From Podospora anserina (Eukaryota): a stretch of DNA of 64,000 bases. The number at the start of each line of letters is the position of its first letter. Within the stretch, counting starts at the first letter, position 1. The notes beneath the pieces are model-generated. The model worked only from the letters and a program-made list of their open reading frames with translations. It made no database searches and was not told the origin of the DNA. Shown one piece after another: positions 42,201 through 63,469 of this stretch. Both the position numbers and the translations under genes were made by a program. The stretch spans positions 3,720,001 to 3,784,000 of the forward strand of contig CM030335.1 of the NCBI GenBank assembly GCA_017654855.1. The letters are read 5' to 3'.

Positions 42201-44258
42201 ATGATGATGATACCACTGATGTTGATCGTCCAAAGGAGCTGCATGAGACCGACTGTGGGACTTCGGTCTCGGGCTCTTCCAGAGAGAGGATTTCCCATTC
42301 TCACAGTCCTGAAAGGGCTGCTTCTTCCTCGTCAGAGATCCAGACAGTGAATGAAGCTGACGCAATCAACACACTGGACTCGGGGAGACAGACTGGTGAT
42401 GTGCAGATTTATACTTACTACATCAAGTCTGTGGGGCTGTGGCCGACCTTGATCTTTGTTTTGGGCATTGTTGCGTTTGTTTTTTGTATTTCGTTTCCGA
42501 GTGAGTTCCTACCTTGCTTGATCCTTTCTTGCTTTGAGGCAAACACTAACATTACCATAGCTGTCTGGGTTCAATGGTGGGCTGCAGAAAATGAGATTCG
42601 CCCCAACGATAACCTGGGATATTGGATTGGTCTTTATGCCATGTTTGGTGGTATCGCCATTGTTGGTCTCACCATTGGCTGTTGGTATGTTATCCTTGCT
42701 ATCGTCAGATTTGTCATGTGTACTGACCGGCAACAGGCAAATGATCATCAAGATGGTACCTCTGTCCGGAGAAAAGTTCCACCTGGCGCTCCTGAAGACC
42801 GTTCTGAGTGCACCCATGTCCTTCTTTGTCAAGACAGACACAGGCGTCACCATGAACCGCTTCAGCCAGGACTTGCAACTCATTGACATGGAGCTCCCCA
42901 TCGCTGCCCTCAACACATTCACCACGTTGATTCTTTGCATCGCGCAGATGGCGCTCATCGGTGTTGGCTCCATCTATGCGGCCATCTCCTTCCCCATCGT
43001 TCTCATCACACTCTATCTCGTCCAGAAGTTTTACCTTCGCACATCCCGCCAGATCCGATTGATCGATATTGAAACCAAGGCGCCATTGTACTCCTTATTT
43101 GAGGAGTCGCTCCGCGGAATTGCCACCATCCGCGCTTTCGGCTGGCAAGACGCCCTCGAGAAAAAGAATCACACCCTCCTCAACCGCTCCATGAAACCGT
43201 TCTACCTCATGTATGCCGTCCAACGCTGGCTTACTCTTGTCCTGGACCTTCTTGTTGCAGCCATCGCTGTTCTTCTCATTATCCTCGTTGTCAATCTCCG
43301 CGGTACTGTTGCCGCAGGTGGTGTTGGGCTCGCACTGCTGAATGTCATCCAGTTCAGCCAGAGCGTCAAACTTCTCGTCACATTTTGGACAACCCTTGAG
43401 ACGCAAATTGGTTCGGTAGCTCGCATCAAGAGCTTCACCAGCACCGCTGTCCCATCTGAGGACCTTCCCGGCGAAGATCAAACTCCACCACCAAACTGGC
43501 CTCAGAAGGGTGCCATTGAGATCAAGAATTTCACGGCCGCGTACAACGAGGGTGACTCAGACCCTGTACTCAAGAACATCTCTCTTTCCATCGCTGCCGG
43601 AGAAAAGGTTGCTATCTGCGGCCGAACAGGAAGCGGCAAGACCTGTCTTGTGTCTTCGCTCTTCCGCATGACCGCTACTCACGCTGGCTCCATCTGCATT
43701 GACGGGGTGGACACGTCCACGATTCCCCGTGAGGATGTCCGCCGCCGGTTGGTCGGTGTCCCGCAGCATCCTTTCCTCCTGAAAGGGTCTGTAAGACTCA
43801 ACGCCGACCCTCTTGGTCAAGCCACGGATGCACAAATACAGACTGCACTCCAAGAGGTCAAAGTCTGGGATATTGTCAGCAGATTTGGCGGACTGGATGC
43901 CGACATTGACAGCCTCAATCTTTCGCAGGGGCAGAGGCAGCTGTTCTGTCTTGCTCGTGCAATAGTGCGGCCGGGGAATATCCTTGTCTTGGACGAGGCC
44001 ACCAGTACCTTGGACGGGAAGACAGAGGAGATGGTTCAAAGGTTGATTAGGAGGAAGTTTTGCGACTACACCATCCTTGCTGTGGCGCACAGGCTGGATA
44101 CCATTATGGATTTTGACAAGGTGGTTGTGCTAGATAAGGGTAAGGTGGTCGAGTTTGATCGTCCTTGGAAGCTGGTGGAGGAGGAAGGGGAAGGGGGCAT
44201 GTTTAAGAAGCTGTGGTTGAAGAGCGTGGAGGAGGATATTGAGGATGTTCCGGAATGA
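39234..44258 (+). CDS. ABCC/MRP-type ABC transporter (about 1,534 aa)
   Basis: N-terminus DNSFGP..CRGGFDFTLFFEE. NBD1: GPVGCGKS, LSGGQ, VILDD. NBD2: GRTGSGKT, LSQGQRQ, LVLDEAT. Introns at 39471-39549, 40160-40213, 40450-40513, 40794-40849, 41084-41138, 42501-42560 and 42685-42736 all keep the frame. Confidence 0.95.
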
Positions 44259-45852: not shown

Positions 45853-47936
45853 TCAACGTAGTCGACCGCGGGTGTGTCGGGCAAGAATGAGAGCCAACAG
45901 AGAGACGGAATACAGAAACGAAACCAAAGCCGCAGTTATCACAGTCCCACCCGCCTTCCCACCATCCTCTCTTCGCAGTCCCACCATCATCAGATTATCT
46001 GGAAGACGCATATCATAGTCTAAAAGTCCCAGAGATGTTTGTATCATGCTGATAGGAAAGGCCGCGGAGACCGAAAAGCATATAACCCAGTATTTATGGC
46101 TTCTAGTCCAACGCCAGAGTCCCCGCCAAACACCAACACTCCTACACAGGATGACGTCCACAAAAGATATTTGACCACCTTTCAAACCGTTGTTTGTAGC
46201 ATGGTTGAGTTGGCCGTTGGCCATTTGTAACGGTGATTCAATCTCCATGATCTGAAGTTCGCGTGTGGTGGTCTCAGCAAGAAAAAGGACCGACTTCCAC
46301 TTCCTGGGCACCTTTGCCTCTGCGTTGGAAAGCAAGTTCCAGTAGGCATTAGCCCACAGTAAACAGACACTCAGAGTCCAAATCAGGAGGGTGGGCGACT
46401 ACTAGGCACAATTGAACGTAGGAGAAGCCCCATCGGTACCGCTATTTGGAATTTCGATCAGCTACATGCTGTGTAAAACAGTAAAGGACAAGGTTGACAG
46501 AATTTAGTTTCTACGTGTACTCTTCTTTTATGAAAGGTTGACATACCCCTGTAGTTGGTTGACAAGAGCCGTACTGAGCGATATAGTCCAAATTGTATAT
46601 CCGCCCGGAGACTGTAAGCTGAACCTTTTGCTTGTCCTTGAAGGAGGTTAAGTTAGTGTCGAAACTTCCCGGAAGGAGACACTGATTCCCGAAATAATAG
46701 GCCGAGATATTTAGCGGAGTTCCTTCTAAGACCTTGTCACCCCAAAATGTTGTGGAAGGCGGCGACCGCAGTACGGAATGCCCAAAAAGCGACCCATGGA
46801 AGCCATACCTTCCGACATACTCAGCGGCCGGGTCTCTGACTCTGCCTTCTTCAAAGCCTGCTTCCCCGATCATGGGACAGGCCGTTCTAAGCTGGTAGAA
46901 CATGTGGTCTAACAGGGGATCGCCTTGAACCATTTCAACCACAATAGGGGAAATAAATAATGAACGCCCGTAAAGGAATCGATGGCTCTCTTACCTACCT
47001 TTGCTGGATAACATGGTGAGAGTTCGTTGGTCTCCACTGAACATCCATGGGCACCACAAACGTTTGGTCCGATTGATCCGCTCGCCGTCATGAATAACGT
47101 ATGCAATGGGGCGAAATTCGGCAAATCGTATATAATTGCCTGTCTCTTACTCAACGACGAACGATTCGGTGCTAGCAGCGTAGCCGGTCATGGCGCTGGT
47201 AAGAGTGGGGAATGCCAAAATGAGTGTCAGTGACATGACGATGAAGGCAATAGCCACCCTTGATTGAACTATACGGTAGAAGGTCCTGTTACTGAGAAGA
47301 CGGTAGATTGCATCAATGGATGACTCCTGGCGTAAATAAATCATCCAGAATGTGGAATAGGAGACAGATCCGGTTTCAAGTGTTGATGCTATATAGTCGG
47401 ATAAAACGCGCCATAAGAGGCACGAAATCAAGAGCTGACCTAGACGCCCGACTAACCACACACGCAGTTAGGAGGCCTCACATTGCTAAATCAGCCGGTT
47501 TCGGGGGAATATTTACCAGGTCCCATGCAATATCAAGACCTTTGGCCTGAGAGAACGTAAAACTTCCTCCTCCGTATGTGATTTGAAAAAGGCCGGACTG
47601 AGACCACCAATTGTAACCTGTGCTCACAGGACTGAACGTGTCATCAGGGCGACAAGCAGTCGGGTTGGCAATCCAAGAGGCCCATAGCGGAAGGCCAATC
47701 GTGAGTGAGACTAACAACGAAAACCAGAGAAGAAACGAAAACCAGAGAAGGAACGAAAACCAGAGAAGGAACGAAGACCAGAGAAGGAACGAAGACCATA
47801 GAGCTAGACGAAGCCAGTGGCATTTAATAGTGACCTCATCAGCCTCCGGTGTTTTTGCTGAGATGCTCGACGGTGATGACACGTAAGAATTTCCAGCGAT
47901 TGCCGCCGTAGAGCAGGACCCTGCATTTGTACTCAT
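45853..47936 (-). pseudogene. Fungal-specific multi-pass membrane protein, probably disabled
   Basis: Blocks FQITYG.G.FTFSQAKGLDIAWDL, LAFPTLTSAMTGY, AYVIHDGERI, QYGSCQP and YRWGFS. In-frame TAA at 47147-47149 (FVVE*ETGNY) and an apparent +1 frameshift near 46394. Confidence 0.65.
47716..47800 (+). repeat. 18-bp tandem repeat (about 4.7 copies of AACGAARACCAGAGAAGR), coding on the minus strand for (F/S)SFLLW-type units
   Basis: Visible directly in the sequence; the minus-strand translation reads LWSSFLLWSSFLLWFSFLLWFSFLLWFSLL. Confidence 0.95.
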
Positions 47937-49050
47937 ACTCTCATGGGATAAACCACGGGGTCAACCTTTCAAAGAGGAGACATAGATAGGTATGTGAAAA
48001 TGAACCGAGCGGCGAACGGGGAACCCTTTTCCCTTTCCATGTTCGAGTCGGGGGCCGGCGTAAGACTGGCACACGTTGCCTGAGTGCAAGATGTAACATC
48101 AATAATTATCTCACCTGGAACATCGCAAGCAAAATTGCTTCTCGCATTGTTGAATCAGCGGTAACGGTATGCCCAACGTTGGACAGAGGAAAGCCACAAA
48201 TTGATGCCTGCAATGTTGTTTCAAGATTAAGGCACAGCTGAGAAGAGAAGGCAGTGTTGAAAGCGTCGATGCCTACCCTATCTACCTACCTTATTTACGT
48301 GCGGACAGCACCGATCAGCATACATGTAGGGAAGGCAGCTACGGCAGGCACCGCCACTTTTGAGATGTCGGTAGATAACACATTACATGTAAGATAGGTA
48401 GGCAAGTCACTGACCTTTGTAAGCACCAGATGTAACCTGATAACTAACCTGGAAATTGCCTGCATTGTTCGAGGCTTCGAGCCAGAGATTCAGGGTGTTG
48501 GGGCGGAAGGGACTCGACTATAGCGGCTGCAACAGACCATCGAGAGGACTTTCCCACCTTGGATCGGTGTACCATATCGGACCCTGGATCTAGTCATCAC
48601 CCACAATCATGAGCCACTGGAACTTCACGTGGAACCATTTCGCACTGATTCCTGGGATTGCGACCAGTTGGCAAACTACCTAGGGTCTTTGGCATGCAGG
48701 TGATGCCAGACCAAGTTGGGAAAAACGCGAACACTTCGCACATGAGTAAGTTCAAGAACGATTGTTGTCTCTATCTCATGATAGGTAAGGTAAGGTAACC
48801 ATGACTTGATTATTTACATCGCGTCCATTTTATGCATGGAGTAGACACTAACGCGTGCCATATGCTAGAACAAAGTATGTGTCAAGTCCCATTCACAAGC
48901 TCGGCTATCGCCAAAACCGTTTCCTCTTGTGATACATCATATGTACTAGGTAGGTCCCTTGTTTTCTGGCCGACCCAAATTTCCCGCCTTCACTGTAGCC
49001 ATCGTTGATTCCTCCGTACATGACCAAAGCATAAAAGAATGTGCATCATT

Positions 49051-51600: not shown

Positions 51601-53361
51601 TCATTTGGACACATGTCTAACAGGAATGAGCCGAATATTCAGCGGCTTCTTGACCCAGAGACCAAATGACTTTGCCTTCGGAAACATTTGTGACTTTTCG
51701 TCGGCCAGAGCCAAGTCAAAGTTCCAGATGAACCTTGCTAGGATGACCCGCATTTCGACGTATGCCAAACTATTGCATCGTAGTCAGAATAAGTCCCCAG
51801 GCTAGGTAAAGCTATGTAGGCGATACTTACTTTTTGCCAATGCAGTTTCGTGGGCCAACTGAAAATGGCTGCAGTGCACTGTGTCTACTCTTGTCGAACA
51901 CTATGCCTTCAAAGCTATCTCCTCCAAGCCAACGCTCGGGGATGAACTTGTCGGGCTCAGTGAAGTTGCGGGAAAGGTGGTTCACAGCCCACGGCCAGAT
52001 CTCGAGGCCGGTCTTGAATCAGTTCTTGGTTAGCTGGCTATGCGTCATATTTGTTTGCGAGCGTAGGACATGAGCTTACATTCTCTGGAATTTGCCATCC
52101 CAGAATCACGTCCCCACCTTTGGCCGCCTTGCGTGGAAGATTGGCCGGTACAGGCGGGAATAATCTCATTGCTTCGTCCAAAACGGCAAGCATATATGTC
52201 AATCTGTTGACACTGAAGAAGTTGATCTCATCTTCGCTTTTGAACTGACCTCTGACCTCCTCTGCCAGCCTTGTCTGCACGCGGTGGTATGTCGCCAGGT
52301 AATATGTTGTTGCCGACAGCGCAGTAGCCGTGGTTTCGCTTCCTGCCAGAATCAACAGCCTTGCGTTCATTGCCATCTCTTCTATTGTCAAGGGTCTTCC
52401 GTTGTTGGCCTTGGATCCGTTGGTCAGGGCCTGAACGAAGTCCGGTCTTTCAACACCAGAGTTGAGTCGCTTGACCACCTGGACGCGGGCGAATTCAGCC
52501 TGTTCATTGGTATGCTTTGCTGGGTGGTGCCAAGGGGTCAGAACCTTGACGACTCTGGAAAAACTGGGGAAAAACCAGTTCATAACCAGCAACATGGCGA
52601 ATTCCTTGACGCCCTTGAGGATGGCCGTGACCCAGGGGTGGTATGAACTGCTCTCCAAGCAACCAAATGGAGCACCGAACGACAGGTCACCAATGATATC
52701 AAAGGTTGTAAAGTTGAACCAGGCGCCCATGTCCGTAACGGCCTCTTCTCGTCCTCCCTTGGTCAATTCCTGCAGACGATCCATCAGCAGGTCGATGTAC
52801 TGCGTGATAAGGGGTTGCTGGTCCTGCATCGCTTTTGCTGAGAATCCGTGGCTCAGGATCTTACGGAAGCGGCTGTGATCCTCACGGTTCGCGCCCAAGA
52901 TGTTGTGCATCGACATCTTGTAGAAAACAGGGTCCTTTCCGTGTTCTGGTTGACCAGCCTTGCGGTGGCCTCGAATGGCATTGTAAGCGTCGGGATGTGC
53001 AAAGGAGACACGATTTGGTGCAACGCGGATGACGTCGCCGTATCTCTCGTGCAATCGGTGAATGTTACTCGACATTCGTCCTGAAAGCCATGCTCGGGTG
53101 TATGGTATCGGCGTCGCCGCCCAAAGCTTTGGACCGGGAAGAGATCGAAGAGGATGGAGGAGCAGGTTGTAGAGGACTGTAGATAATAGTATCATGATAG
53201 TCTATACCGAAAAGCATTGATCGAGTCAGAAATAGGCGCTCAGGTCAATATAAAGCAACGCGAAGTGTTGGAGAATGGAGATTTCCTACCGCCCCAGCAA
53301 GCCATGTTGGCCAAGCAATGAATGGATACGTCCCGAGAGAAATTCTGTCAAGAATTGTCAT
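51601..53361 (-). CDS. Cytochrome P450, CYP65/Tri11-like
   Basis: HPLRSLPGPKLWA, FNFTTFDIIGDLSFG, I-helix LILAGSETT, ExxR (EAMR), PERW and heme motif PFSVGPRNCIGK. Three introns. Confidence 0.9.
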
Positions 53362-54806
53362 GGTGCAGCTCGTAAAGGATGGGGTTTATTGTCAAGGTAA
53401 GTATTGGGGGAGAAAGGTGGCTCTGAGGTTCAATAAGTAAGGTAGGTGTCGCCATCACTCGCTGTAATCACCCGTTGCATAACGTGTAATGTGTTCGGGC
53501 ATAGGACGGCAGTGTTGGCATGCCACATTGTTCCTGCGGTCGGAGGAAAAGGGATTCGAAGAAGGTACAACAGACACCATCATCAGGGAACGTCAACGTC
53601 GGCGTTAACACATTTAGTCATCAGCCTCGGTGCAAGGAATTGACCGTCGAATCGATACGCCCCGTCGTATCGCCATGTTGTACACCTCCACTAGGTGTTG
53701 CTCATTGAGAGTGTGACTAGGTGCTCATTTCGACAGTTCCACAGTCATTGCGACGTGAGATGTGGGCAACATGAACATAATTCATCATCATTCACTCAAC
53801 GTTGTACTCGCGCTCAACGGTTCCATTCAGCACCGAATGATCGTCAGCGCGTCGTTAAGTTTACCACTGTCGGCAATTCGTAATACAGTAATCATCTCAG
53901 GCTCGTCTTGCCCCTACGTTGACAACCTCCAACATCGATTTCGAGCCGCGTCTGCTCGGCAACCGCTAATGTCAGGTCGCACACAAACAATATCATATGT
54001 CTGCTAGAATTATGGTCATATAAGGTAATTCTGGAAACATACTCGAATAGCGAGGTAGGTACTTGAAGTTCAGGCAGGACACCACCAAATGATTCCAATA
54101 TTTCACCTTTCGGCCTCTTCAGAGGCAACCGCAACATTCCACCGGGCAGGCTGGTAAATCATTGGAAAGTGAAAAAGGACCGCAGGTAGTGCCAAATTCA
54201 GCAGCCCAGAACCATTGCTGGTCCATCTCGATGCTTTCGGCGGGCCCTCCGAACTACACATAGATTTGTTTTCAGACACACTTCACGGTGAGCAAACCCT
54301 CCTACTATCGGGGGTGGGTTTTGCTGGAGCGTCGTACAACTAAGTAACACGTCACAGAAACTGCGCGCAATATTTGGCCTAGTACAATGATTCGCTTCAT
54401 TGCTTCCGACTGCAACCCCTCGTAGACACGTGCCATGCCAGACCTCCGAGCTGTCTCCAACAATCGATAGCTACCTACTTCAGACGACACCCATCAGCTC
54501 CCCCACCAAGCTCACCTCGCACTAAGCTGTCCTTAGTGGCGGCAAGCAAATCTGCTGCCGAGACGGGACCATGCGGGGCCTTTACCCGCTCAACTTCATC
54601 CGGGAAATCGACCTGGCCATGTTATGGTCTCGACATCCTTTGTCAGCTGGTGGGCAGCGACATGGCTGCTGGTTGTGCGAACTTCGTTATATCCTGATTG
54701 CATTTGTCCGCTGAGACACTCACCACCCACACACGACACTACCTGCCATTGGACTACCTAGTTACCACACCTCCAGTTCGCCATCGTGGGTGGGAAACTG
54801 CAAGCC

Positions 54807-56698
54807 ATGCTCGCAGACAGGCTTTTGGACAATATCATATTGGCCAAGTGCCAGTTGGCCATTGCCGACGTCGGTATTGACAATGTCGTCCTCGGGTTGT
54901 TGACCGTCGCAGTCATTGCTGTTGCAGTCGACTACGCGCACATGCTCTATCTGAGATCAAAGATGCCACCTGGGCCCTTCCCGCTACCCATTGTTGGCAA
55001 CACATTCTCGCTCCCAGACAACAAGCCATGGATCTACTTTGAGGAGCTGTCCAAGAGATACAACACACCACTTATCACATACTGGATTGGGCGGCAAGTA
55101 CCTAGGTAGCTTTCACAAACCAACAATCGAGTTGCTAACGCCCTGTTCACGCAGGAATCCCACACTTTGGATCAACGAAGCTTGGTGTGCCCATGAGATA
55201 TTTGAGAAGAAGGCTCAAATCTACACTTCAAGGCCTCGGATGATTGTTTTTGGAGAGCTAGGTTCGGGTCAGTCAAACCTGGTGACGATGCAAATTCGTA
55301 ACCAAGAGGAGCGCGAGCGATGGCGAATTCACCGCAAGCTGATGCACATTGGAGTTGGCGTGCAGTCGGTCCGGGGGTATCGCGCTATCCAGAACAATGA
55401 AAGTAAAATCATTGCCTTGGACTTTCTGAGGGAGCCCAAGGAGTACGTCAAGCACCTGGAGAGGTATGCCACGAGCGTCGTGTCTATCATTGCGTTTGGG
55501 CGAAGGGTTGCCAGCTACAATGACCCCATCATCACGGAGGTTATTGCCTTGATGCAGCTGGCAGCTGATCTCAACGTTCCCGGCAAGTCTTTCCCCATGC
55601 TGCTCGAGACGTTTCCTAGTGAGTATCCCTGTCCTGTTCAGACATGCGGAAAGCCGACTGACCAAATCAGTCCTTGCCAAGTTTCCGCGATTCATGCCGT
55701 GGTTCAAGGGACTCGGAAGCCGTAACTCAAAAGGCGGTCACTACTTCTTCTACACGCTGGCCGAGGAGGCTATCGAGCAGTACAACCAAAAGTCCCCTTC
55801 GGAACAAGCCAGCATGCCTACGCCCTATGTCAAGACTCTGTTCGAAGAAGCTGATAAGTACAAGTTGCCAGTCGCCGAGCTCTCAGGTTTGACCGGAAAC
55901 CTCTTTGGTGCCGGGGCCGACACATCCTCAAGCACACTTGTCAGCTTTATCTTGGCATGCTGCGCATTTCCAGAGACTGTGAAGAAGGCCCAGGAAGAGC
56001 TCGACCGGGTGATCGGGCCGAATCGCTCACCACACTGGGACGACTCACCAAACCTGTCTTACATCAACGCCTTTGTACGAGAAGTGCTTCGCTGGAGAAG
56101 CGTAGCTATCATTGGTGGCCAACCTCATTCGCCCACCCAAGATGACACCTACAATGGCTGGCTCATACCCAAGGGTTCCTGGATCCAAGGCAACGTCTGG
56201 GCCATTCACCATCATGAGAGAGAGTTTCCAGACCCGGACCGTTTCTACCCAGACCGATATCTGGAGGGCAATGATTACAAGCGCCCGTTCCCTAATGACA
56301 AAGGCTACATGACCTTTGGCTGGGGGAGGCGTGTGTGCAGCGGACAAGCACTCGCGGAACAGGGAACATGGATCAGTGTTGCTCGACTGTTATGGGGGTT
56401 CAACATCCGTAAAGCTCGTGACCCCACGACAGGCAAGGAGATCGATGTGGACATCTTTGCCTTCACCAACGGTCTGAACATGCGGCCCCAGCCGTTCCCC
56501 TGCGAGATCGTGCCAAGGAGCCAGGAGATCAAGGAAGCTATCGAGCGGGAGGGGCGGCAAGCGTTGCAAGATCTCAAAATCCATGACGGGGAGAGTCAAT
56601 ACAGGATGAGCACGTTCTACCAGCAACAAAAGAAAAAGGTGGCTCAGGAGCCCATCATCGATGAGAAGGGCAACGTCAGGTTTGTCAAGGTCGGGTAG
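54807..56698 (+). CDS. Cytochrome P450 (CYP64-like clan; aromatic hydroxylase-like)
   Basis: PPGPFPLPIVGN, GAGADT, EVLR, PDRF and heme motif FGWGRRVCSG. Introns at 55094-55154 (probable GC donor) and about 55619-55670. Confidence 0.93.
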
Positions 56699-57271
56699 TG
56701 ACCTCATGCAAGAAAGCACAAGGGATAATAGGGAGAGTCTAGTGAAAGAGGCAAAACTGAAACTTTATTGATACAACGCCCTTGCACACAAGTAACCACG
56801 CCAATGCCGTTGTTTGGATGTCATGACATGGTTTAAACCTTCGAACAGTTTTAGTTATCTCGAGGTACCCCCGAGACTTCTGACCACAGACTAAAACATG
56901 GTCAAAATGGCGGTTTTACGTTATAAAAAATATCACGGGATATGACCGTCGCAGCGATACATGAAATGAAGAGCATTCAAGTCGAAGCAATCGAAGGCGG
57001 TTGTGGTAGGCGAGTAACCCTAACCCTGTAATGCCCCTGAACCCCTGAGAACCGGAAAACAACACCCAGTGTACCTACTCCAACAAAGGACATGGCTTGT
57101 CAAAAAACGGCCCTGCATGTTCTGTGTTAGCGTAGGCGACGTCACGCGGGCAGTTCTCCATTCAACGCAAGCTTTTCTTTCCCTTTTTCTTTCAGCTTCA
57201 GTTTGGAGAAATCGCGGCACTGGCGACGATCGTATGGGCATGTGGCAATCCCCAAGACCTGGTCACCTGGG

Positions 57272-57294
57272 ATGCGGGGGTGTATTCCCCGCAT
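57272..57294. promoter_or_regulatory. Inverted pair of CreA/CRE-1-type sites (ATGCGGGG-N7-CCCCGCAT)
   Basis: Perfect 8-bp inverted repeat. Each arm matches SYGGRG. It lies about 490 bp upstream of the FAD monooxygenase ATG. Confidence 0.5.
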
Positions 57295-57779
57295 TCACAG
57301 TGAGCGCGTTCTCCACGGTCATGGGAAAACGCGTGACGCCCACGCCGAGAACGACTTCATACGCTTGGTTGCTGTTCAGCTGTTGGGGGCACCTATTCGG
57401 CATCTGATGTGAGGGGCACACTACCAACATGTCGGATCATGGTGTCAGCGTGGAGGCGAGGAAATCCCGATCCGGAAATCCAACAGTTCTTCGGAGGCAG
57501 ACAAGGAGAGAGGGAAACGCTGACCGGGGCCGGCACGTCAATAGCCTGATTGCCAAATTCGGGGACAACTTTATGATGAGGGTCGTGCGGTACCAGCAAA
57601 TTGCCATGCATAAGAGACTGGTCCCCATCATGTAGCAGTTGACGTTGCAGTACATCCAAGTTACAGATATAAGCCGTTGATAGACGCAACAAACCACCCA
57701 CGCACCCGTTTCATAGCCAGACTTATCACCATACCTACCTTCTCCAACCGCCAGACCAACACCACAGAGACTCACAATC

Positions 57780-59154
57780 ATGGCCCCCACGCCCACCGGC
57801 ATCAACGTGATAATTGTCGGCGCCGGCTTCGGTGGCCTTACAGCAGCAATCGAGTGCCACCGACAAGGCCACAACGTCACCATCTACGAGAACTTCCCCG
57901 CTCTCAAGACACTCGGCGACATCATCTCCTTTGGTGCCAACGGCGGGCGTATCTTTGCCCGCTGGGCCGACGGCGCCATTGCCAGAAAGCTCCGTTCCCT
58001 CTGCATCGACCTCACAGACTACGGCTTCCGCATTCACAAGTACGACACGGGTGAGGTAGTCTACCACCAACCCACCCCACCCCAGCGCGAGGAGGCGCCC
58101 GTCTTCAATGGCCACCGCGGTGAGCTGCATGAGGTGGTGTTCAACTACGCCAGGGACGAACTCGGCATCCCGATCCACCTCGGCCAACACGTCGATGAGT
58201 ACTTTGAAACAGAGGACAAGGCCGGAATCGTACTCAAGTCTGGAGAGCGGGTCGAGGCCGACATTGTCATTGGGGCTGATGGCGTCAGATCAAAGGCGAG
58301 GGAGCTTGTTCTTGGGTACGTGGACAAGCCCAAGAGCAGCGGCTATGCTGTCTGGCGGGCGTGGTTCTCTAACAAGGACATGATTGCCGACCCACGCACC
58401 AAGGAGTTTTGTGAGAATGGGGATACCTTCAACGGCTGGATCGGGCCCGACGTGCACTTCCTCTTCAGCACAATCAAGGGCGGCAAGGATTGCTGTTGGG
58501 TGCTCACCCACAAAGATGAGCACGACATCGATGAGTCGTGGTCTTTCCCGGGCAAGCTGGAAGACGTGTACAAGGTTTTGGAGGGGTGGGATCCCGTTTG
58601 CAAGGCCATCGTGGAGAAGACCCCGAGCTTGGTGGACTGGAAGTTGGTCTACCGAGACCCCCTGCCCACCTGGGTGAGCAAGCACGCGCGGATTCTGCTC
58701 TTGGGTGACGCTGCCCACCCATTCTTGCCTACCAGTGCCCAGGGAGCCACTCAAGCGATGGAGGATGGTGTCACGATTGCCGTGGCCTTGAAGCGCGGGG
58801 GGAAGGATGGTGTCCCAGCTGCAGTGAGGGCTCACCAAGAGCTCAGGTATGTTCAGCAACGTTTCGAGTCTGGATTGGGTGTTCCGCTAACATGACAACA
58901 GATATGAACGCGTTAGAGCTGTGCAAAAGACTGGCGAGTCCACTCGCGACAGATGGCACAAGACGGACTGGGAAACTGTTAAACAAAACCCGAAGAGCAT
59001 TGAGTTCCCACGAGAGGACTGGATCCATGGCTTTGACGCTGAAAAGTACGCAGAGGATAATTACGACGAGGCGATCAAGAAGCTGGCAATTAAGCAGGAG
59101 CCAGAGGAGGAAACCGCTCCGTTGGCAGCTGTGCCTCCTGCTGTAGTGGTTTAG
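57780..59154 (+). CDS. FAD-dependent aromatic monooxygenase (salicylate hydroxylase/MAK1-like, group A)
   Basis: VIIVGAGFGGL, GADGVRS (DG motif) and LLGDAAHPFLPTSAQGATQAMED (GD motif). Intron at 58847-58901. Confidence 0.93.
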
Positions 59155-59362
59155 AATTTCGTTACCTTGGGTACCTAGTCATGAAGTCCAGTCGTGGCGC
59201 TTGGGAGCATGTTTTGCTTGAGCTGTAGAGGTAGTTTCCAATATCATCCGTGTTGAACAGGATGCCTTTGTTTTATGTGAAAACCCTAGTTGAAAACGGA
59301 TATGCTCCTGGCCAACCCTCTAGCTACCTGTCAGTAATTGCATAGAGATATCTACGTACAAT

Positions 59363-60939
59363 TCACTCTTCTTCCAAGGCCATGATAACGCTCTTCACCT
59401 CCAGAAAGTTGTCCATGCTGCACAATGCACCCTCGCGCCCCTGTCCACTTCCCTTGTACCCACCAAAAGGTAGGTCATATGCAGTATTCGGGCTGGTGGT
59501 GTTGATGCCCACATATCCGCTCTCCAGCGCTTGTACGACTCTCATGGCTCTGCTGATGTCCTTGGTGAAGACCGAGGCATACAACCCAAACTCGGTATCA
59601 TTCGCCTTGGCAATGGCCTCCTTCTCGGTCTCAAAGGTGTTGATGATAACCACTGGCCCAAACACCTCTTCCTTGGTTATTTTAGCCTCCTCTGGGGTAT
59701 TCAGGAAGATGGTCGGTTCGATAAAGTATCCATTCGAGGTCTCCAACTTTCCAGACCCCCCAAGAGCGAGAGTGGCGCCCGAGTCTTTCGCCGAGTTGAT
59801 GTAAGAAAGCACATGCTTGTACTGAAGCTCATCTGCCTGGGGGCCATGATTCGTCTCTTTGTCCAAAGGGTTGCCTGACTTGACGCTCGAGCTGTAGCTA
59901 ACTTTGAACTGCTCGACGAATTTCTCGGCGATGGTTGACTGTACGTAGATGCGGGAATTGGCCATGCAAACCTGCCCAGAGTTGAACTGCATGCTCCAGC
60001 GGGTCTGGGCAACCGCCTTCTCGAGGTTTGCGTCGTCGAAGATGATGGCGGGTGACTTGCCTCCAAGCTCGAGAATGACCTTCTTGAGATTTGTTCGCGC
60101 CGCCTCCTCCTGGATGAGCTTTCCCGTACGGCTCGAGCCTGTAAAGCTCAGTGCCCTGACGTCCATGTGGCGGGACAGGATCTGACCAGAGGGGATGCCA
60201 TGACCGGAGAGAACATTGAAGACCCCCGGCGGGAAGCCTGCTTCTTTGACGAGCTTGGCGATTCGAGCAACTGCCAGAGGCGCCTTCTCCGAAGTTTTGA
60301 GAACAATAGTGTTTCCCGTTATCAGCGCTGGCGCTGACTTGGACGCAAAAAAGTGCACTGGCACATTCCACGGAATGATGAGAGCTACCACCCCGAATGG
60401 CTGGCGAAGCGTCATGGTGACATGACCAGGGGTGTTGACACTGGCCTGGCCCTGAATATGGGGCCAGGCCTCGGCGTAGTGGTCATATTGCCCGGCTGCG
60501 GATTCGGCGAAGAAGTGGGTAGAAACGGGCATCCCCATCGCCACAGCGTCCAGCTTGGCAATTTCATCTCTGTGCTCCCGGATAAGAGCGGCGAGCTTCT
60601 TTAGGTAAACAGCACGTTTTGCTGGACCCAGCGCTGACCAAGCGGGGAAGGCTGCTTTGGCTGCAGCCACCGCTCTATTGGTGTCATCTGCGGTAGCTTC
60701 AGGAACTGCGCACCGTCATCAGCTGATGTTCTCGTTAAATTGGAAAAAGTGGGCGGTTATTTACCTTCTCCTGACACTTCTCTAGTGGCGGGATTGTAAA
60801 CAGAAAATGTCTTGCCATCCGAGGCTTCAACGAGCTAAAGGTATGTCAGTGGGTGCTTCTAGGTACTTGGCAACGATGGGAATCACACCTCTCCATCTAT
60901 CAACATCCGTGGCCGGATGGGACTGGTGCTAAATGCCAT
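59363..60939 (-). CDS. NAD(P)+-dependent aldehyde dehydrogenase
   Basis: IIPWN, KTSE, FTGS, LELGGKSP, catalytic Cys in FNSGQVC, EEVFGP and PFGGYKGSG. Introns at 60706-60764 and 60835-60888; start MAFSTSPIRPRMLIDGE. Confidence 0.95.
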
Positions 60940-62319
60940 CCTGGCTTGATTCTGAGGTTATGTCACTGATACAGTGTAAAGGGGGCGGAATTCACACCAA
61001 ATTGCCGTGAGTCGTGGTAGGCAGGTAGGTACCTTAGGCAATGGTGAAAGAAAGTTTCCACAGGAATTGGCCAGAACATGAAAGTAAACTTGCGATGAAG
61101 TCTTCTTTCGGCGTTAAGTTCCACCGGCATCCATAAGCTAGTTTGATCCACGTCCCTATATCAAGATATGTTAACCCCGCAGTAACATTGTCGCCATTTT
61201 GGGAAGCTGGAACCGGGTAGCTTTATCCGGCTGATTGCAACGAAACAATAGGAAGTGTGAGAGGCGGATGGCGAGGTGACTAAGCGTTGCTGTGACATAA
61301 TACGTGATCACAAGTAGGTAGACATCTAGAGGTTATTCATTCACTACGAGGTTACGCTGTGCATTCACAAGGGTTCTCCACAGAACACTCCCTGTCGGCG
61401 GACCGCTGCTTGGAATCAGATGGTGGACAGGGAGCGTCCCGTCAGGTTGGGAAGCATTTGCGGGAATGAGGCTCCATCGGCAGGGCACCTGCCCCTGGGG
61501 CTGTGGATACCTACTTGGACTCGACATCACGACAATCTCTACCATGTTGCAATTACAGTGATTCACGCCCGACTCCCTCAAACTCGACAAAAGCATACGC
61601 GGCTTACTTTCTCTTTTTGGACCACCAAATCTCGGTCATACTCGTATACGACAGGCAGTGCGTTTAACTGGCGAGTAGAAATCATCACAACGACATCATA
61701 AACGTATGATAGTAGGATCATACGATAAGGTTGTCAACTCGACGAACCAACATTTCGTCTGATGCAGGGATATTTCATGAACCCAAGATGAGCCTTGCCT
61801 GTATTCAACGACCGATCGCTGTTGACGCCACGTGGGATTCCATCCAGCTGGGTTGCTATCTCCACTCTAGGCCAGGGTCCAAAGACGAGGCCATCCCCAA
61901 AATCCCTATCATGGACGAGCGGGCCTTGCGGGGACACTAAGAGTTGGGTCAAACGCTGGATCTTTGTGAGGCTCCATTTTTGACTGCCCAAATTCCCACC
62001 CATGGGTCCATATCTCCGGGCTCGTCACCTTCATCCTGTCGGGCTCGAGGATGCCATTTGCCGTTGGGGATTGGGGGTCCATTCGGGGGGTCGGGGCCCA
62101 TTTACCGCAGACAGCGGGCCGGAACCATTGGCCTTGGCAACAGCCCATGGGTTCATCTCCCGGGATTTGACCCCCCACCCCAGGTGCCAGTTGGGCATGC
62201 TTGTTTTTGGTCATCCTCAAGTCTTTAAAACCTTCAACTGTGCTGCTTGTTTCCACCCTCGAGGTTATATCATTGCCTGCCGTTCGCTCTGTCGCTCAAG
62301 CCAAACTGCACATCGCAAC

Positions 62320-63469
62320 ATGACCTTCCAGAAAGCTCCCAAAGGCACCATCGCCATCGAAGAGGCTGTCCTCGACCCCGCCGGCCTCAGTTGGATCTCT
62401 GCCTCGGCGCCTCTCTTCAACCCAGGACATCGCCAAACACCTCCGCACTCGCCTTCCGGCTCTCCTCCCGGTTCTCCTACCCGTCACTCTCACCTTACAT
62501 CTCTTCTCCAAGATGTCCACACTACCCGCCTTCACCAGATGGACACACATGGCGTGGAATACATGCTTCTGTCTTTAACCTCCCCCGGACCCCAAGGCGA
62601 ATCAGACCCTGCCAAAGCCGCGATCATCGCCCGTGAGGCCAATAACTGGCTTTCAGAGCAAGTGAAACTCAACCCAGCGCGTTTCGGGGGTCTCGCGTCA
62701 GTTTCCATGCACAACTCTGCTGATGCTTCAGCTGAAGCAGTTCGGGCAGTGAAGGAACTGGGATTTTTCGGTCTGATCATCAACGACTACCAGGACTCCT
62801 CACCTGGTGCTCCCAACGCGGACAAGGAAGGCAAGATCTACTACGACGGTGAAGGATTTCACGAGTTTTGGAAGACTGTTGAAGAACTGGACGTGCCAGT
62901 GTACTTGCACCCTCGATACCCGGCGGCACTGGACCTCGAGCCTGGGACCAAATGGGGAGATAGGAAGCAGATTCTCGGGGCTGCGGTTCAGTTCCATTTG
63001 GATCTGAGCACGCATGTGTACGCACTGTGTTCATCGGGCGTATTCGATCTCTTTCCACGAGTCAAGGTCGTTATTGGACACTTGGGAGAAGGGCGAGTCG
63101 TCAATATGTGTCATCTACGTGATTTCAACTGCTAACGTGACGTCCAGGATTCCCTTCAATCTTTGGAGGGCAGACCACTGGTATAACAAACCCGTGAAGA
63201 AGGCCACCCGACCGTCCAAGGAGGACTACACCTACTATTTCACCCACAACATTTCCATCACCACGTCGGGAAACTTTAACGAGCCAGGCCTCAAGTTTTG
63301 CATAGATCAAATTGGAGTGGAACGGTGTCTATTCTCAATTGATTATCCATACGACACCATTGCAGAGGCACAATACTGGTGGCACGGCGTGGACTTGCCA
63401 GCCGATCAGAAAGAGCTGGTAGCAAGGGGAAACGCCATCCGTTTGTTCAAACTGCCATTGGATCCTTGA
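62320..63469 (+). CDS. Amidohydrolase-2 family non-oxidative decarboxylase (2,3-dihydroxybenzoate/salicylate/gamma-resorcylate decarboxylase-like)
   Basis: IAIEEA, YMLLSLTSPG, YLHPR, GHLGEGIPF, TTSGNF, FSIDYPY and NAIRLFKL. GC-AG intron at 63093-63147. Confidence 0.9.

What the first reader, a model, noticed from the sequence alone, without database searches (positions are those of the whole stretch)
54807..63469. Four-gene candidate aromatic-catabolism/detoxification cluster: P450 + FAD hydroxylase + ALDH + hydroxybenzoate decarboxylase
Seen: four adjacent intact enzymes, with ALDH and the decarboxylase divergent, and no PKS or other backbone gene next to them in the window. Known: CYP64-clan P450s can oxidise aryl-methyl groups, ALDHs make aromatic acids, amidohydrolase-2 enzymes decarboxylate ortho-hydroxybenzoates, and group A flavin monooxygenases hydroxylate phenols. 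Inference: together they form an 'oxidise the methyl group, then remove it as CO2' route (methylphenol to aldehyde to acid to phenol/catechol to hydroxylated ring). I do not recognise this set as a characterised fungal pathway. The cluster may continue past the window end.
Basis: partly seen in the sequence, partly recalled or inferred. Interest (0 to 1): 0.7.

Follow-up and report, generated by a model that had tools for sequence, protein, structure and literature searches.

The report
Composite fungal aromatic-dimer breakdown cluster
Five neighbouring genes in a Podospora-like mould appear to join two enzyme sets for breaking down plant aromatics, and one set looks like the fungal counterpart of the last two steps by which bacteria digest a lignin dimer.

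Summary
The four genes are real, intact and spliced; a fifth, an upstream P450, belongs with them. They stay linked across several Sordariomycete orders, so this is a conserved cluster. Nothing supports the methylphenol route specifically, and an NRPS lies 18 kb away.

The ALDH and decarboxylase are orthologues of two genes of the published, uncharacterised stilbene-oxygenase (sco) 'model 1' cluster (sco, decarboxylase, ALDH, SnoaL-like gene). That SnoaL protein is PcfL-type by motifs and tree. Its closest bacterial relatives sit with the same three enzyme kinds in 34 of 59 long loci, the known beta-5 lignin-dimer route PcfL-LsdD-FerD-LigW. This genome keeps an intact SnoaL+sco pair on another contig.

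Best reading: the ALDH and decarboxylase strip the ortho-formyl group left by stilbene cleavage (5-formylferulate to ferulate). The P450/FMO/P450 trio is a second, separately inducible, MAK1-like oxygenase module of unknown substrate. No activity is shown, and the trio may be unrelated or tied to the NRPS. A 2026 review says fungal pathways for such dimers are unreported, so this gives directly testable candidates.

The parts
51601..53361 (-).
   Evidence: Model, introns, Pfam. A 49-59% homologue lies beside the decarboxylase in 4 of 46 fungal locus groups, inside the cluster in L016/L070.
53362..54806 (.). Divergent intergenic region shared by the two P450 genes
   Evidence: Gene models. The two P450s rise together.
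54807..56698 (+). Cytochrome P450, 592 aa (exons 54807-55093, 55155-55618, 55671-56698; first intron GC-AG; Pa_4_4570 by gene order)
   Evidence: Orthologues 66-88% in Sordariomycetes. Substrate unknown.
57780..59154 (+). Group A FAD monooxygenase, 439 aa, MAK1-like subfamily (Pa_4_4560; N. crassa NCU07055)
59363..60939 (-). Aldehyde dehydrogenase, 487 aa (exons 60939-60889, 60834-60765, 60705-59363; Pa_4_4550), orthologue of the sco model-1 ALDH
   Evidence: Tree: one clade with 19 decarboxylase-linked ALDHs, UFBoot 100, apart from 12 own paralogues.
60940..62319 (.). Divergent intergenic region shared by ALDH and decarboxylase
   Evidence: Sequence. The head-to-head layout recurs in L006, L008-L017, L019-L021, L027, L029, L049 and L070.
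62320..63469 (+). Amidohydrolase-2 ortho-hydroxybenzoate decarboxylase, 364 aa (GC-AG intron 63093-63147; Pa_4_4540), orthologue of the sco model-1 'dhbd'
   Evidence: Tree (fungal clade, SH 0.998). Pocket motif. Next-best copies in this genome only 33-35%.

Best explanation
The locus is a composite catabolic cluster for plant phenolics, made of two modules. Module 1 (ALDH + decarboxylase, head to head) is the back half of the sco 'model 1' cluster and works like bacterial FerD + LigW. It oxidises an aromatic aldehyde with an ortho OH and removes the carbon as CO2, most likely 5-formylferulate to 5-carboxyferulate to ferulate. The aldehyde would come from beta-5 (phenylcoumaran) lignin or neolignan dimers. 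These would be opened to a stilbene by the PcfL-type SnoaL lyase and cut by the model-1-type sco, both encoded side by side on contig C6 (3183000-3186300). Module 2 (P450, MAK1-like FMO, second P450) was added in Sordariomycetes, is inducible on its own, and probably oxygenates related polycyclic plant phenolics. SHOWN: genes, splicing, linkage, orthology of ALDH and decarboxylase with the model-1 genes, an intact SnoaL+sco pair elsewhere in the genome, PcfL-type motifs. INFERRED: all substrates, the feeding of module 1 by the C6 pair, and any metabolic link between the two modules.
For: (1) The decarboxylase clade sits with ALDH in 21, sco in 16, SnoaL in 15, and all three in 9 of 46 fungal locus groups. 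This is the gene set of model 1 in bioRxiv 10.1101/343673. (2) The window ALDH and decarboxylase fall in the clades of those genes. The pocket motif G-A-[AG]-V-[QS]-F is shared across both contexts; it aligns with LigW G-A where 2,3-DHBD has G-P-P. (3) The fungal SnoaL hits only LdpA structures in the PDB (8ABT is in PMC9942872). Of the 59 loci of 15 kb or more among its 80 best bacterial hits, 34 also hold sco-like, ALDH and amidohydrolase genes. L210 repeats the order ligO-ligN-pcfL-ferD-ligW of N. aromaticivorans, and its decarboxylase matches PDB 4INF at E 2e-187. (4) 16 of 17 fungal SnoaL rows carry each of the PcfL-type motifs RF, WWEGG and P.WH, unlike LdpA. The PcfL-side split has UFBoot 100. 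(5) The C6 SnoaL is intact and keeps 6 of the 7 residues mutated in LdpA (His183 not checked); the C6 sco is in the model-1 clade (SH 0.997). (6) All five window genes and the C6 sco fall in mat+ versus fpr1- (-1.5 to -2.3, p<0.005; sco -1.82), while GH10 (+1.28), ABC (+1.87) and NRPS (-1.05) do not. (7) The pathway itself is shown in bacteria (PMC11323797).
Against: No activity is known for any of these proteins. No locus seen carries both FMO/P450 and sco/SnoaL (0 of 46; most contigs are short). The C6 SnoaL groups with L056/L058 (UFBoot 94), not with L024/L029, whose decarboxylases are nearer the window's, so the C6 pair may not be the original partner. Raw identity barely separates PcfL from LdpA types (47% versus 45% and 42%), and the bacterial sample was chosen by likeness to the fungal protein. 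The window ALDH and decarboxylase are only 33% and 31% identical to FerD-like and LigW, so they are analogues; overall the decarboxylase is nearer 2,3-DHBD (E 1e-74 versus 5e-50 and 8e-40). The co-expression is weak: neighbours Pa_4_4590, 4600 and Pa_5_6760 also fall (-1.4 to -1.7), and SnoaL moves only -1.32 (p 0.08). In two other sets the trio rises without ALDH and decarboxylase, once together with the NRPS. Beta-5 bonds in wheat-straw lignin were relatively resistant to P. anserina (PMC7161253). None of the 80 bacterial loci has the FMO or the P450.
Confidence: 0.43

Rival explanations
1. One linear route, close to the first reader's. After leaving sco and SnoaL, the ALDH/decarboxylase module was re-wired so that a P450 makes the ortho-hydroxy aldehyde (from an o-cresol-type methyl, salicyl alcohol or a ring-opened coumarin or benzofuran), and the FMO hydroxylates the resulting phenol.
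For: Linkage of decarboxylase, FMO and P450 across orders, with consecutive accessions in Thozetella. The five genes are kept in a new order in L016/L070. FMO/P450 and sco/SnoaL contexts never co-occur in 46 groups. All five genes move together in one data set. Module swapping is the theme of 10.1101/343673.
Against: The pocket motif is unchanged between the two contexts. The genome keeps intact model-1 SnoaL and sco. The trio is induced without the pair in 2 of 3 sets. 2 of the 4 long Sordariales-like groups (L015, L020/21) lack both the FMO and this P450 within about 10 kb upstream.
Confidence: 0.17
2. Two unrelated units kept near each other by ordinary fungal mesosynteny: the pair does aldehyde/acid catabolism and the trio does stress- or bacteria-induced detoxification.
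For: Two separate divergent promoters. Separate induction. GH10 and DLH neighbours also recur (4 and 2 groups). FMO orthologues are widespread and unlinked outside Sordariomycetes (6 of 6 unlinked comparisons are outside the class).
Against: Linkage holds beyond Sordariales and through rearrangement. There is a shared response, with a sharp edge at GH10.
Confidence: 0.13
3. Module 1 serves plant stilbene phytoalexins (ortho-hydroxylated stilbenes giving, for example, 2,4-dihydroxybenzaldehyde) or beta-1 dimers, as the 2018 paper's reading implies, and the SnoaL is not a beta-5 lyase.
For: The published interpretation. A C. globosum SCO in a partial model-1 cluster cleaves stilbenes. The identity margin between PcfL and LdpA types is small.
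Against: Free stilbenes need no lyase, and beta-1 cleavage gives vanillin, which needs no ortho-hydroxy decarboxylase. The bacterial neighbourhoods and motifs are PcfL-type.
Confidence: 0.11
4. Secondary metabolism: the P450s (above all P450b), perhaps with the FMO, tailor the product of the NRPS 18 kb away or make another metabolite.
For: Both P450s are inside the published predicted NRPS cluster. P450b, P450, FMO, NRPS and ABC all rise against Serratia. The nearest solved FMO relatives include the biosynthetic CtdE.
Against: NRPS, methyltransferase, terpene synthase, UstYa and KEP give 0 hits in 80 loci, with a positive control for NRPS, methyltransferase and ABC (reach 10 kb at most). The NRPS is not among the changed genes in the PaRid mutant and is flat. 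10-18% of the genome rises in the Serratia set.
Confidence: 0.1
5. Indole or other N-heteroaromatic catabolism (skatole to indole-3-carbaldehyde to the acid to indole, with an FMO attacking the 2,3-bond).
For: The FMO's nearest solved relatives are recalled as indole 2,3-epoxidases (7KPQ, 7CP6, 6PVF). The trio is induced by bacteria.
Against: The ancestral context of ALDH and decarboxylase is sco/SnoaL. The M. oryzae P450 orthologue is tied to indoles only by a 24% BLAST guess.
Confidence: 0.06

Closest known systems
sco gene cluster 'model 1' (Gluck-Thaler, Vijayakumar, Slot; bioRxiv 10.1101/343673): sco + dhbd + ALDH + SnoaL-like, 80 clusters, computational
   Same: The window decarboxylase and ALDH are in the clades of the model-1 genes, and the genome has model-1-type sco and SnoaL.
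   Different: sco and SnoaL are on another contig, and the pair is joined to two P450s and an FMO. The paper has 0 hits for 'p450' or 'monooxygenase', left SnoaL unassigned, and read the cluster as stilbene catabolism, though it noted the LigW2 likeness.
Beta-5 dimer pathway of Novosphingobium aromaticivorans: PcfL, LsdD, FerD, LigW (PMC11323797)
   Same: The same four enzyme kinds; a PcfL-type SnoaL; the decarboxylase shares metal ligands and the G-A pocket pair with LigW.
   Different: ALDH and decarboxylase are not orthologues (33% and 31%). The genes are split over two contigs here. There is no FMO or P450 in the bacterial loci. No fungal activity is shown.
Fungal 2,3-dihydroxybenzoate decarboxylase (PDB 7WJR, 7A19, 6M53) and salicylate/gamma-resorcylate decarboxylases
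   Same: Best PDB matches, E 1e-74 to 1e-61; E14, H197, D323, H254 and R265 are kept.
   Different: A separate clade with G-A-A-V in place of G-P-P-L at the pocket. I found no characterised member.
MAK1 maackiain hydroxylase and the 'pterocarpan hydroxylase' (PAH) cluster class (bioRxiv 10.1101/184242; PMC8120277)
   Same: Sources name orthologues of the FMO 'MAK1-like' or 'related to maackiain detoxification protein 1'. PAH models 1, 2 and 4 contain P450s.
   Different: I could not compare with MAK1 itself or see the model contents, so this locus may already be one of the 133 PAH clusters. It is not AbMak1 (497 aa, different N-terminal motif).

Membership tests
sco cluster model 1 | dhbd-clade decarboxylase | tested here: met
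   fungal clade, SH 0.998, with the sco/SnoaL-linked members
sco cluster model 1 | model-1 ALDH | tested here: met
   UFBoot 100; 59-77% versus 28-46% for own paralogues
sco cluster model 1 | sco in the same locus | tested here: not met
   sco copies are on C6 and C2, none on C5
sco cluster model 1 | SnoaL-like gene in the same locus | tested here: not met
   on C6, directly beside sco
Bacterial beta-5 pathway (PcfL/LsdD/FerD/LigW) | PcfL-type NTF2 lyase in the genome | tested here: met
   Motifs and tree. The reference is a PcfL orthologue assigned by gene order (L210), not PcfL itself.
Bacterial beta-5 pathway (PcfL/LsdD/FerD/LigW) | Stilbene dioxygenase in the genome | tested here: met
Bacterial beta-5 pathway (PcfL/LsdD/FerD/LigW) | Orthology of ALDH with FerD and of the decarboxylase with LigW | tested here: not met
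   33% and 31%; nearer fungal 2,3-DHBD
Bacterial beta-5 pathway (PcfL/LsdD/FerD/LigW) | Activity on DC-C, 5-formylferulate and 5-carboxyferulate | not testable with these tools
   Needs assays
Amidohydrolase-2 ortho-hydroxybenzoate decarboxylases | Metal ligands and catalytic residues (E, H, D; GHLGE; the Arg of the W-R motif) | tested here: met
   E14, H197, D323, H254, R265
2,3-DHBD proper (DhbA type) | G-P-P pocket motif | tested here: not met
   G-A-A-V in the window protein
PAH (MAK1) cluster class | Anchor gene homologous to MAK1 | tested here: inconclusive
PAH (MAK1) cluster class | Assignment to one of the four models | not testable with these tools
   Figure 4 and supplements of 10.1101/184242 could not be seen
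Predicted NRPS cluster Pa_4_4640 | Inside the published boundary | tested here: inconclusive
   Both P450s are listed; FMO, ALDH and decarboxylase are not
Predicted NRPS cluster Pa_4_4640 | Co-conservation with the NRPS | tested here: not met
   0 hits in 80 loci, reach 10 kb at most, with positive control
Aryl-methyl-oxidising P450s (CYP64 clan, patulin PatH/PatI type; names recalled) | CYP family membership | not tested
   No fungal reference among the PDB hits; Atlas names are automatic

The most novel reading that the evidence does not exclude
Many ascomycetes have an intracellular pathway for beta-5 (phenylcoumaran) lignin and neolignan dimers with the chemistry of bacterial PcfL-LsdD-FerD-LigW. 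It was assembled convergently from a bacterial-type lyase and dioxygenase plus a fungal ALDH and decarboxylase. The sco 'model 1' cluster is that pathway. In Podospora it is split, and its back half (this locus) has fused with an oxygenase trio that widens the range of dimers or pterocarpan-like compounds it can handle.
Probability: 0.4. Interest if true: 0.82.

Novelty: new variant of a known kind. Interest (0 to 1): 0.62.

Why it matters
A 2026 review states that specific fungal pathways for model lignin dimers, like those of bacteria, have not been reported (PMC12997858, passage). If the reading holds, soft-rot and litter ascomycetes funnel carbon-carbon-linked lignin fragments themselves. 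It would give a function to about 80 published orphan clusters and their unknown SnoaL gene. It would also be a case of convergent pathway assembly between bacteria and fungi. The test is cheap: four soluble enzymes, substrates already made for the bacterial work, and a host with gene deletion. A new decarboxylase clade and a fungal formaldehyde lyase would also be useful for lignin valorisation.

Tried and rejected
(1) Shared promoter word: a 12-mer lies upstream of both C6 genes, with a shorter variant at window 61941. It is in 0 of 38 orthologous decarboxylase promoters, and the other 5 of 7 genome matches lie at unrelated genes. Rejected.
(2) CCGG-N-CCGG sites: 8 found, 8.2 expected.
(3) CreA-like TGCGGGG: upstream of decarboxylase in 16 of 38, ALDH 10 of 14, sco 8 of 16, versus 100 of 796 background windows. 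The background includes coding DNA, so it is not used as evidence.
(4) AbMak1 as the orthologue: rejected.
(5) Two A>C differences in the RNA-like runs: read as strain alleles, since P0375 carries the matching residue at 59054.
(6) No listed run is on record as RNA; contig depth was not used to rank genes.
(7) Looking beyond 10 kb in the metagenome contigs was not possible. A Sporothrix super-cluster with both gene sets is therefore only a guess from tag spacing and from L024 being sister to the S. curviconia enzyme.
(8) Locus-tag literature searches found only expression lists and one BLAST table. My first guess of the tags (Pa_4_4520) was wrong.
(9) The journal version of Gluck-Thaler and Slot 2018 is not held.
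(10) Five look-ups in earlier findings gave nothing bearing on this locus.
(11) Atlas searches returned generic names only.
(12) Supports printed were shifted by re-rooting; the values used are from the raw tree.
(13) Rows dropped from trees: L010 and L061 (ALDH, under 200 aa), L066 (decarboxylase, 197 aa), and redundant or short SnoaL and sco rows.
No structure or complex prediction was run.


Full report
1. WHAT IS THERE. The window is G000:C5:3720001-3784000, from a fungus whose genes match Podospora anserina complex records at 99%. The four genes build without stops: P450 592 aa, FMO 439 aa, ALDH 487 aa, amidohydrolase-2 364 aa. Pfam agrees and catalytic motifs are present. Contigs of three putative RNA runs from three studies skip all six introns; the DNA-like run X16, which may be this DNA's source, does not. 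A second P450 (53361-51601, 514 aa) is divergent from the first. Public records give Pa_4_4540 for the decarboxylase and Pa_4_4560 for the FMO. Tags 4550, 4570 and 4580 follow from gene order and the annotations. An NRPS (about 12.2-37.0 kb, minus strand) and an ABC transporter lie about 18 kb upstream, so the window does hold a backbone gene.

2. THE LINKAGE IS CONSERVED. Outside the Podospora complex I could compare tags or accessions for 21 species. In 15, two or three of decarboxylase, FMO and P450 lie within 9 numbers: Thozetella (consecutive), Bombardia, Sordaria brevicollis, Cercophora LCS_1, Neurospora tetraspora, Mycothermus, Neonectria punicea, Dactylonectria macrodidyma, Ilyonectria robusta, three Sporothrix species, Ophiostoma piceae, Zalerion and Chlorociboria. 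By recalled taxonomy these span five Sordariomycete orders and one Leotiomycete. In 6 they are far apart: Delitschia, Paecilomyces, Thermoascus, Thermomyces and two Cadophora. All six are outside Sordariomycetes, and in five the P450 may be a paralogue. Most pairs were picked because they shared a contig length, so 15 of 21 is not an unbiased rate.

A metagenome scan gave the best 80 of 118 loci. They collapse to 62 groups, of which 16 distant relatives were set aside, leaving 46 fungal groups. Of these, 21 have the ALDH, 3 the FMO, 3 the P450, 2 have FMO+P450+ALDH, and 4 the second P450. L010/L011 repeat the window's four-gene order; L016/L070 keep all five genes in another order. Against a fixed set: among the 14 groups with 5 kb or more on both sides, L015 and L020/21 have the pair without the FMO or this P450.

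3. THE PAIR COMES FROM A PUBLISHED CLUSTER. In the same 46 groups, 16 have a carotenoid-oxygenase-family gene, 15 a SnoaL-like gene, 21 either, and 9 both plus ALDH; several add a fungal transcription factor and 3 a zinc ADH. None has both this set and the FMO/P450. This is 'model 1' of Gluck-Thaler et al. (bioRxiv 10.1101/343673; I read parts 1, 3, 5 and 6 of 7 and passages): sco + dhbd + ALDH + an unknown SnoaL-like gene, 80 clusters, none of whose SCOs was tested in that study. The window ALDH forms one clade with the 19 linked ALDHs in the tree (10 of them model-1; UFBoot 100; 59-77% identity versus 28-46% for 12 own paralogues). The decarboxylase lies in one fungal clade (SH 0.998) with the model-1 members, and the FMO/P450-linked state is nested in its Sordariomycete-like part. 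It is the only copy of that clade in the genome (next 35% and 33%). The other half exists here too: an intact 285-aa SnoaL gene directly upstream of an sco on C6. The sco is in the model-1 clade (62-70%, SH 0.997). By gene order these are Pa_5_6750 and Pa_5_6740.

4. THE SNOAL POINTS TO BETA-5 DIMERS. Its only PDB relatives are 8ABT, 8ABU and 8ABV, the LdpA formaldehyde lyase of PMC9942872 (passages). PMC11323797 (passages) shows that the LdpA homologue PcfL opens the phenylcoumaran ring. LsdD then cuts the stilbene to vanillin and 5-formylferulate, the ALDH FerD oxidises it, and the amidohydrolase LigW decarboxylates it to ferulate.

A scan of prokaryote genomes returned the best 80 of at least 587 relatives (50-62%). 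Of the 59 loci of 15 kb or more, 45 carry an sco-like gene, 45 an ALDH, 47 an amidohydrolase and 34 all three; none of the 80 carries the FMO or P450. L210 (Novosphingobium) has SDR, SDR, transporter, SnoaL, ALDH, decarboxylase, transporter, dioxygenase. That matches the tags ligO, ligN, pcfL, ferD and ligW tabulated in PMC12997858, and its decarboxylase matches 4INF at E 2e-187. I therefore use its SnoaL as a PcfL stand-in.

Fungal rows share its motifs (RF, WWEGG and P.WH in 16 of 17 each; DKCLY-like in 12 of 17), where LdpA has WF, FWESG, MQWQ and DYNRP. Fungal and PcfL-type sequences are split from LdpA-like ones with UFBoot 100. The sister relation to the sphingomonad clade is weak (SH 0.755) and is not recovered. 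The C6 protein keeps the equivalents of Y35, D40, Y74, H97, E143 and Y147. Caveats: identity alone barely separates the types (47% versus 45% and 42%), and the C6 SnoaL groups with L056/L058 rather than L024/L029.

5. THE DECARBOXYLASE POCKET. Metal and catalytic residues are kept (E14, H197, D323, H254, R265). Overall it is nearest 2,3-DHBD (E 1e-74; LigW 5e-50 and 8e-40). At the pocket, though, the clade has G-A-[AG]-V-[QS]-F in both gene contexts (exceptions L037, P0077). This aligns with LigW G-A where 2,3-DHBD has G-P-P. That this position makes room for a ring substituent is recalled and inferred, not shown. ALDH and decarboxylase are 33% and 31% identical to the FerD-like and LigW proteins of L210, so the four-gene set would be convergent.

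6. THE OXYGENASE TRIO. The FMO is 73-90% conserved across Pezizomycotina and often named MAK1-like. Its nearest solved relatives are CtdE, 7CP6 and 6PVF (E 2e-78 to 4e-66), ahead of decarboxylating hydroxylases. MAK1 hydroxylates maackiain (PMC8120277, passages). 133 'pterocarpan hydroxylase' clusters, three of whose four models contain P450s, were reported in bioRxiv 10.1101/184242 (passages). I could not see their contents, so this locus may be among them. It is not AbMak1 (PMC5611651; passages, section 5 and supplement 1).

Published P. anserina expression tables (supplement rows only):
(a) PMC3125171, mat+ versus fpr1-: all five genes fall (-2.28, -1.77, -1.54, -1.71, -2.02; p<0.005). GH10 is +1.28, methylase -1.40, DLH -1.53, ABC +1.87, NRPS -1.05, C6 sco -1.82, C6 SnoaL -1.32 (p 0.08), Pa_5_6760 -1.68.
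(b) PMC6709928, PaRid mutant: FMO 2.2-2.8, P450 3.3-3.8 and P450b 7-16 fold up; the pair and the NRPS are not listed.
(c) PMC4835503, Serratia: FMO 1.7, P450 2.5 and P450b 4.6-7.5 (apparently log2), with NRPS 1.9-3.5 and ABC 1.4-4.3; the pair and both C6 genes are blank. Both P450s are in that paper's NRPS cluster list.
So the locus behaves as two sub-modules, and a tie of P450b to the NRPS is not excluded. No NRPS, methyltransferase, terpene synthase, UstYa or KEP homologue occurs in the 80 loci.

7. VERDICT. Best explanation (0.43): a composite catabolic cluster whose ALDH and decarboxylase remove the ortho-formyl carbon of stilbene-cleavage products of beta-5 dimers, fed by the C6 genes, plus an inducible oxygenase trio of unknown substrate. 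Rivals: P450-fed linear route 0.17; unrelated neighbours 0.13; stilbene phytoalexins or beta-1 dimers 0.11; NRPS tailoring 0.10; indoles 0.06. Against it also stands the finding that beta-5 bonds in straw lignin were relatively resistant to P. anserina (PMC7161253, passages), although that concerns the polymer rather than free dimers.

8. NOVELTY. Half of the locus belongs to a cluster published in 2018, and the trio may be in a 2017-18 catalogue, so this is a variant of a known kind. I found no paper that links fungal model-1 clusters or fungal SnoaL proteins to PcfL chemistry. The searches were (listings; top 20 only where there were more) and the tag searches. PMC11323797 has 0 hits for 'fung', PMC12997858 says such fungal pathways are unreported, and the A. 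niger review PMC12388069 has 0 hits for 'stilbene' or '5-carboxy'. The library is open-access only, and the supplements of both bioRxiv cluster papers, which bear on this, could not be seen. Also seen without bearing: PMC8879529 (passage) and 10.1101/2024.12.09.627484 (passages). Interest 0.62.

Noticed in passing
window 12174-37035 (-) and 39532-44258 (+): Large multi-module NRPS (Pa_4_4640 by gene order) with an ABC transporter; both are induced by Serratia in a published table. Recalled as resembling the conserved NRPS4-type pair; not tested.
   Followed up: partly
L003:2725-4536 (G000:C5, about 12 kb right of the window): Signal-peptide-like ORF with four copies of a 12-residue repeat flanked by basic residues, next to a UstYa/DUF3328 gene: a likely KEP/dikaritin-type RiPP locus.
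   Followed up: no
L002:6323-7265: Terpene-synthase-like ORF (Pfam Terpene_syn_C_2) about 6 kb right of the window; absent from related loci.
   Followed up: partly
L136 (NYXK01000223.1): A contig filed in a 'Deltaproteobacteria' MAG is 99.9% identical over 10.9 kb to fungal contigs L043/L044/L046 and carries intron-bearing genes: a mis-binned fungal contig.
   Followed up: yes
L100-L101 (G000:C2:270000-277700) and L103 (G000:C6:3218000-3226000): Two further sco genes, each beside a vanillyl-alcohol-oxidase-like gene and a transcription factor (model-3 type); the C6 one lies 38 kb from the SnoaL+sco pair.
   Followed up: partly
L102:3773-6283 (G000:C1): An 837-aa, apparently secreted ORF with a SnoaL-like match; many 450-1000 aa multi-SnoaL proteins appear. 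Unexplained.
   Followed up: no
Upstream regions of L006-L071: The word CGGCAGTT, a possible Zn2Cys6 site, lies upstream of the decarboxylase in 11 of 38 and ALDH in 8 of 14 groups, versus 45 of 796 background windows; no exact copy within 700 bases of the window's genes.
   Followed up: partly
L036, L045, L048, L050: A third context for the decarboxylase clade: beside a different FAD monooxygenase, a transcription factor, a zinc ADH and a P450, without ALDH, sco or SnoaL.
   Followed up: no
window 55094-55154, 63093-63147; L097:8070-8126: Three GC-AG introns among these few genes (P450, decarboxylase, C6 SnoaL); the first two are confirmed by spliced contigs.
   Followed up: partly
window 46514-47960 (-) and L002:8461-9176: An unknown membrane-like gene between DLH and the methyltransferase has a paralogue about 8 kb right of the window; no Pfam match.
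   Followed up: no
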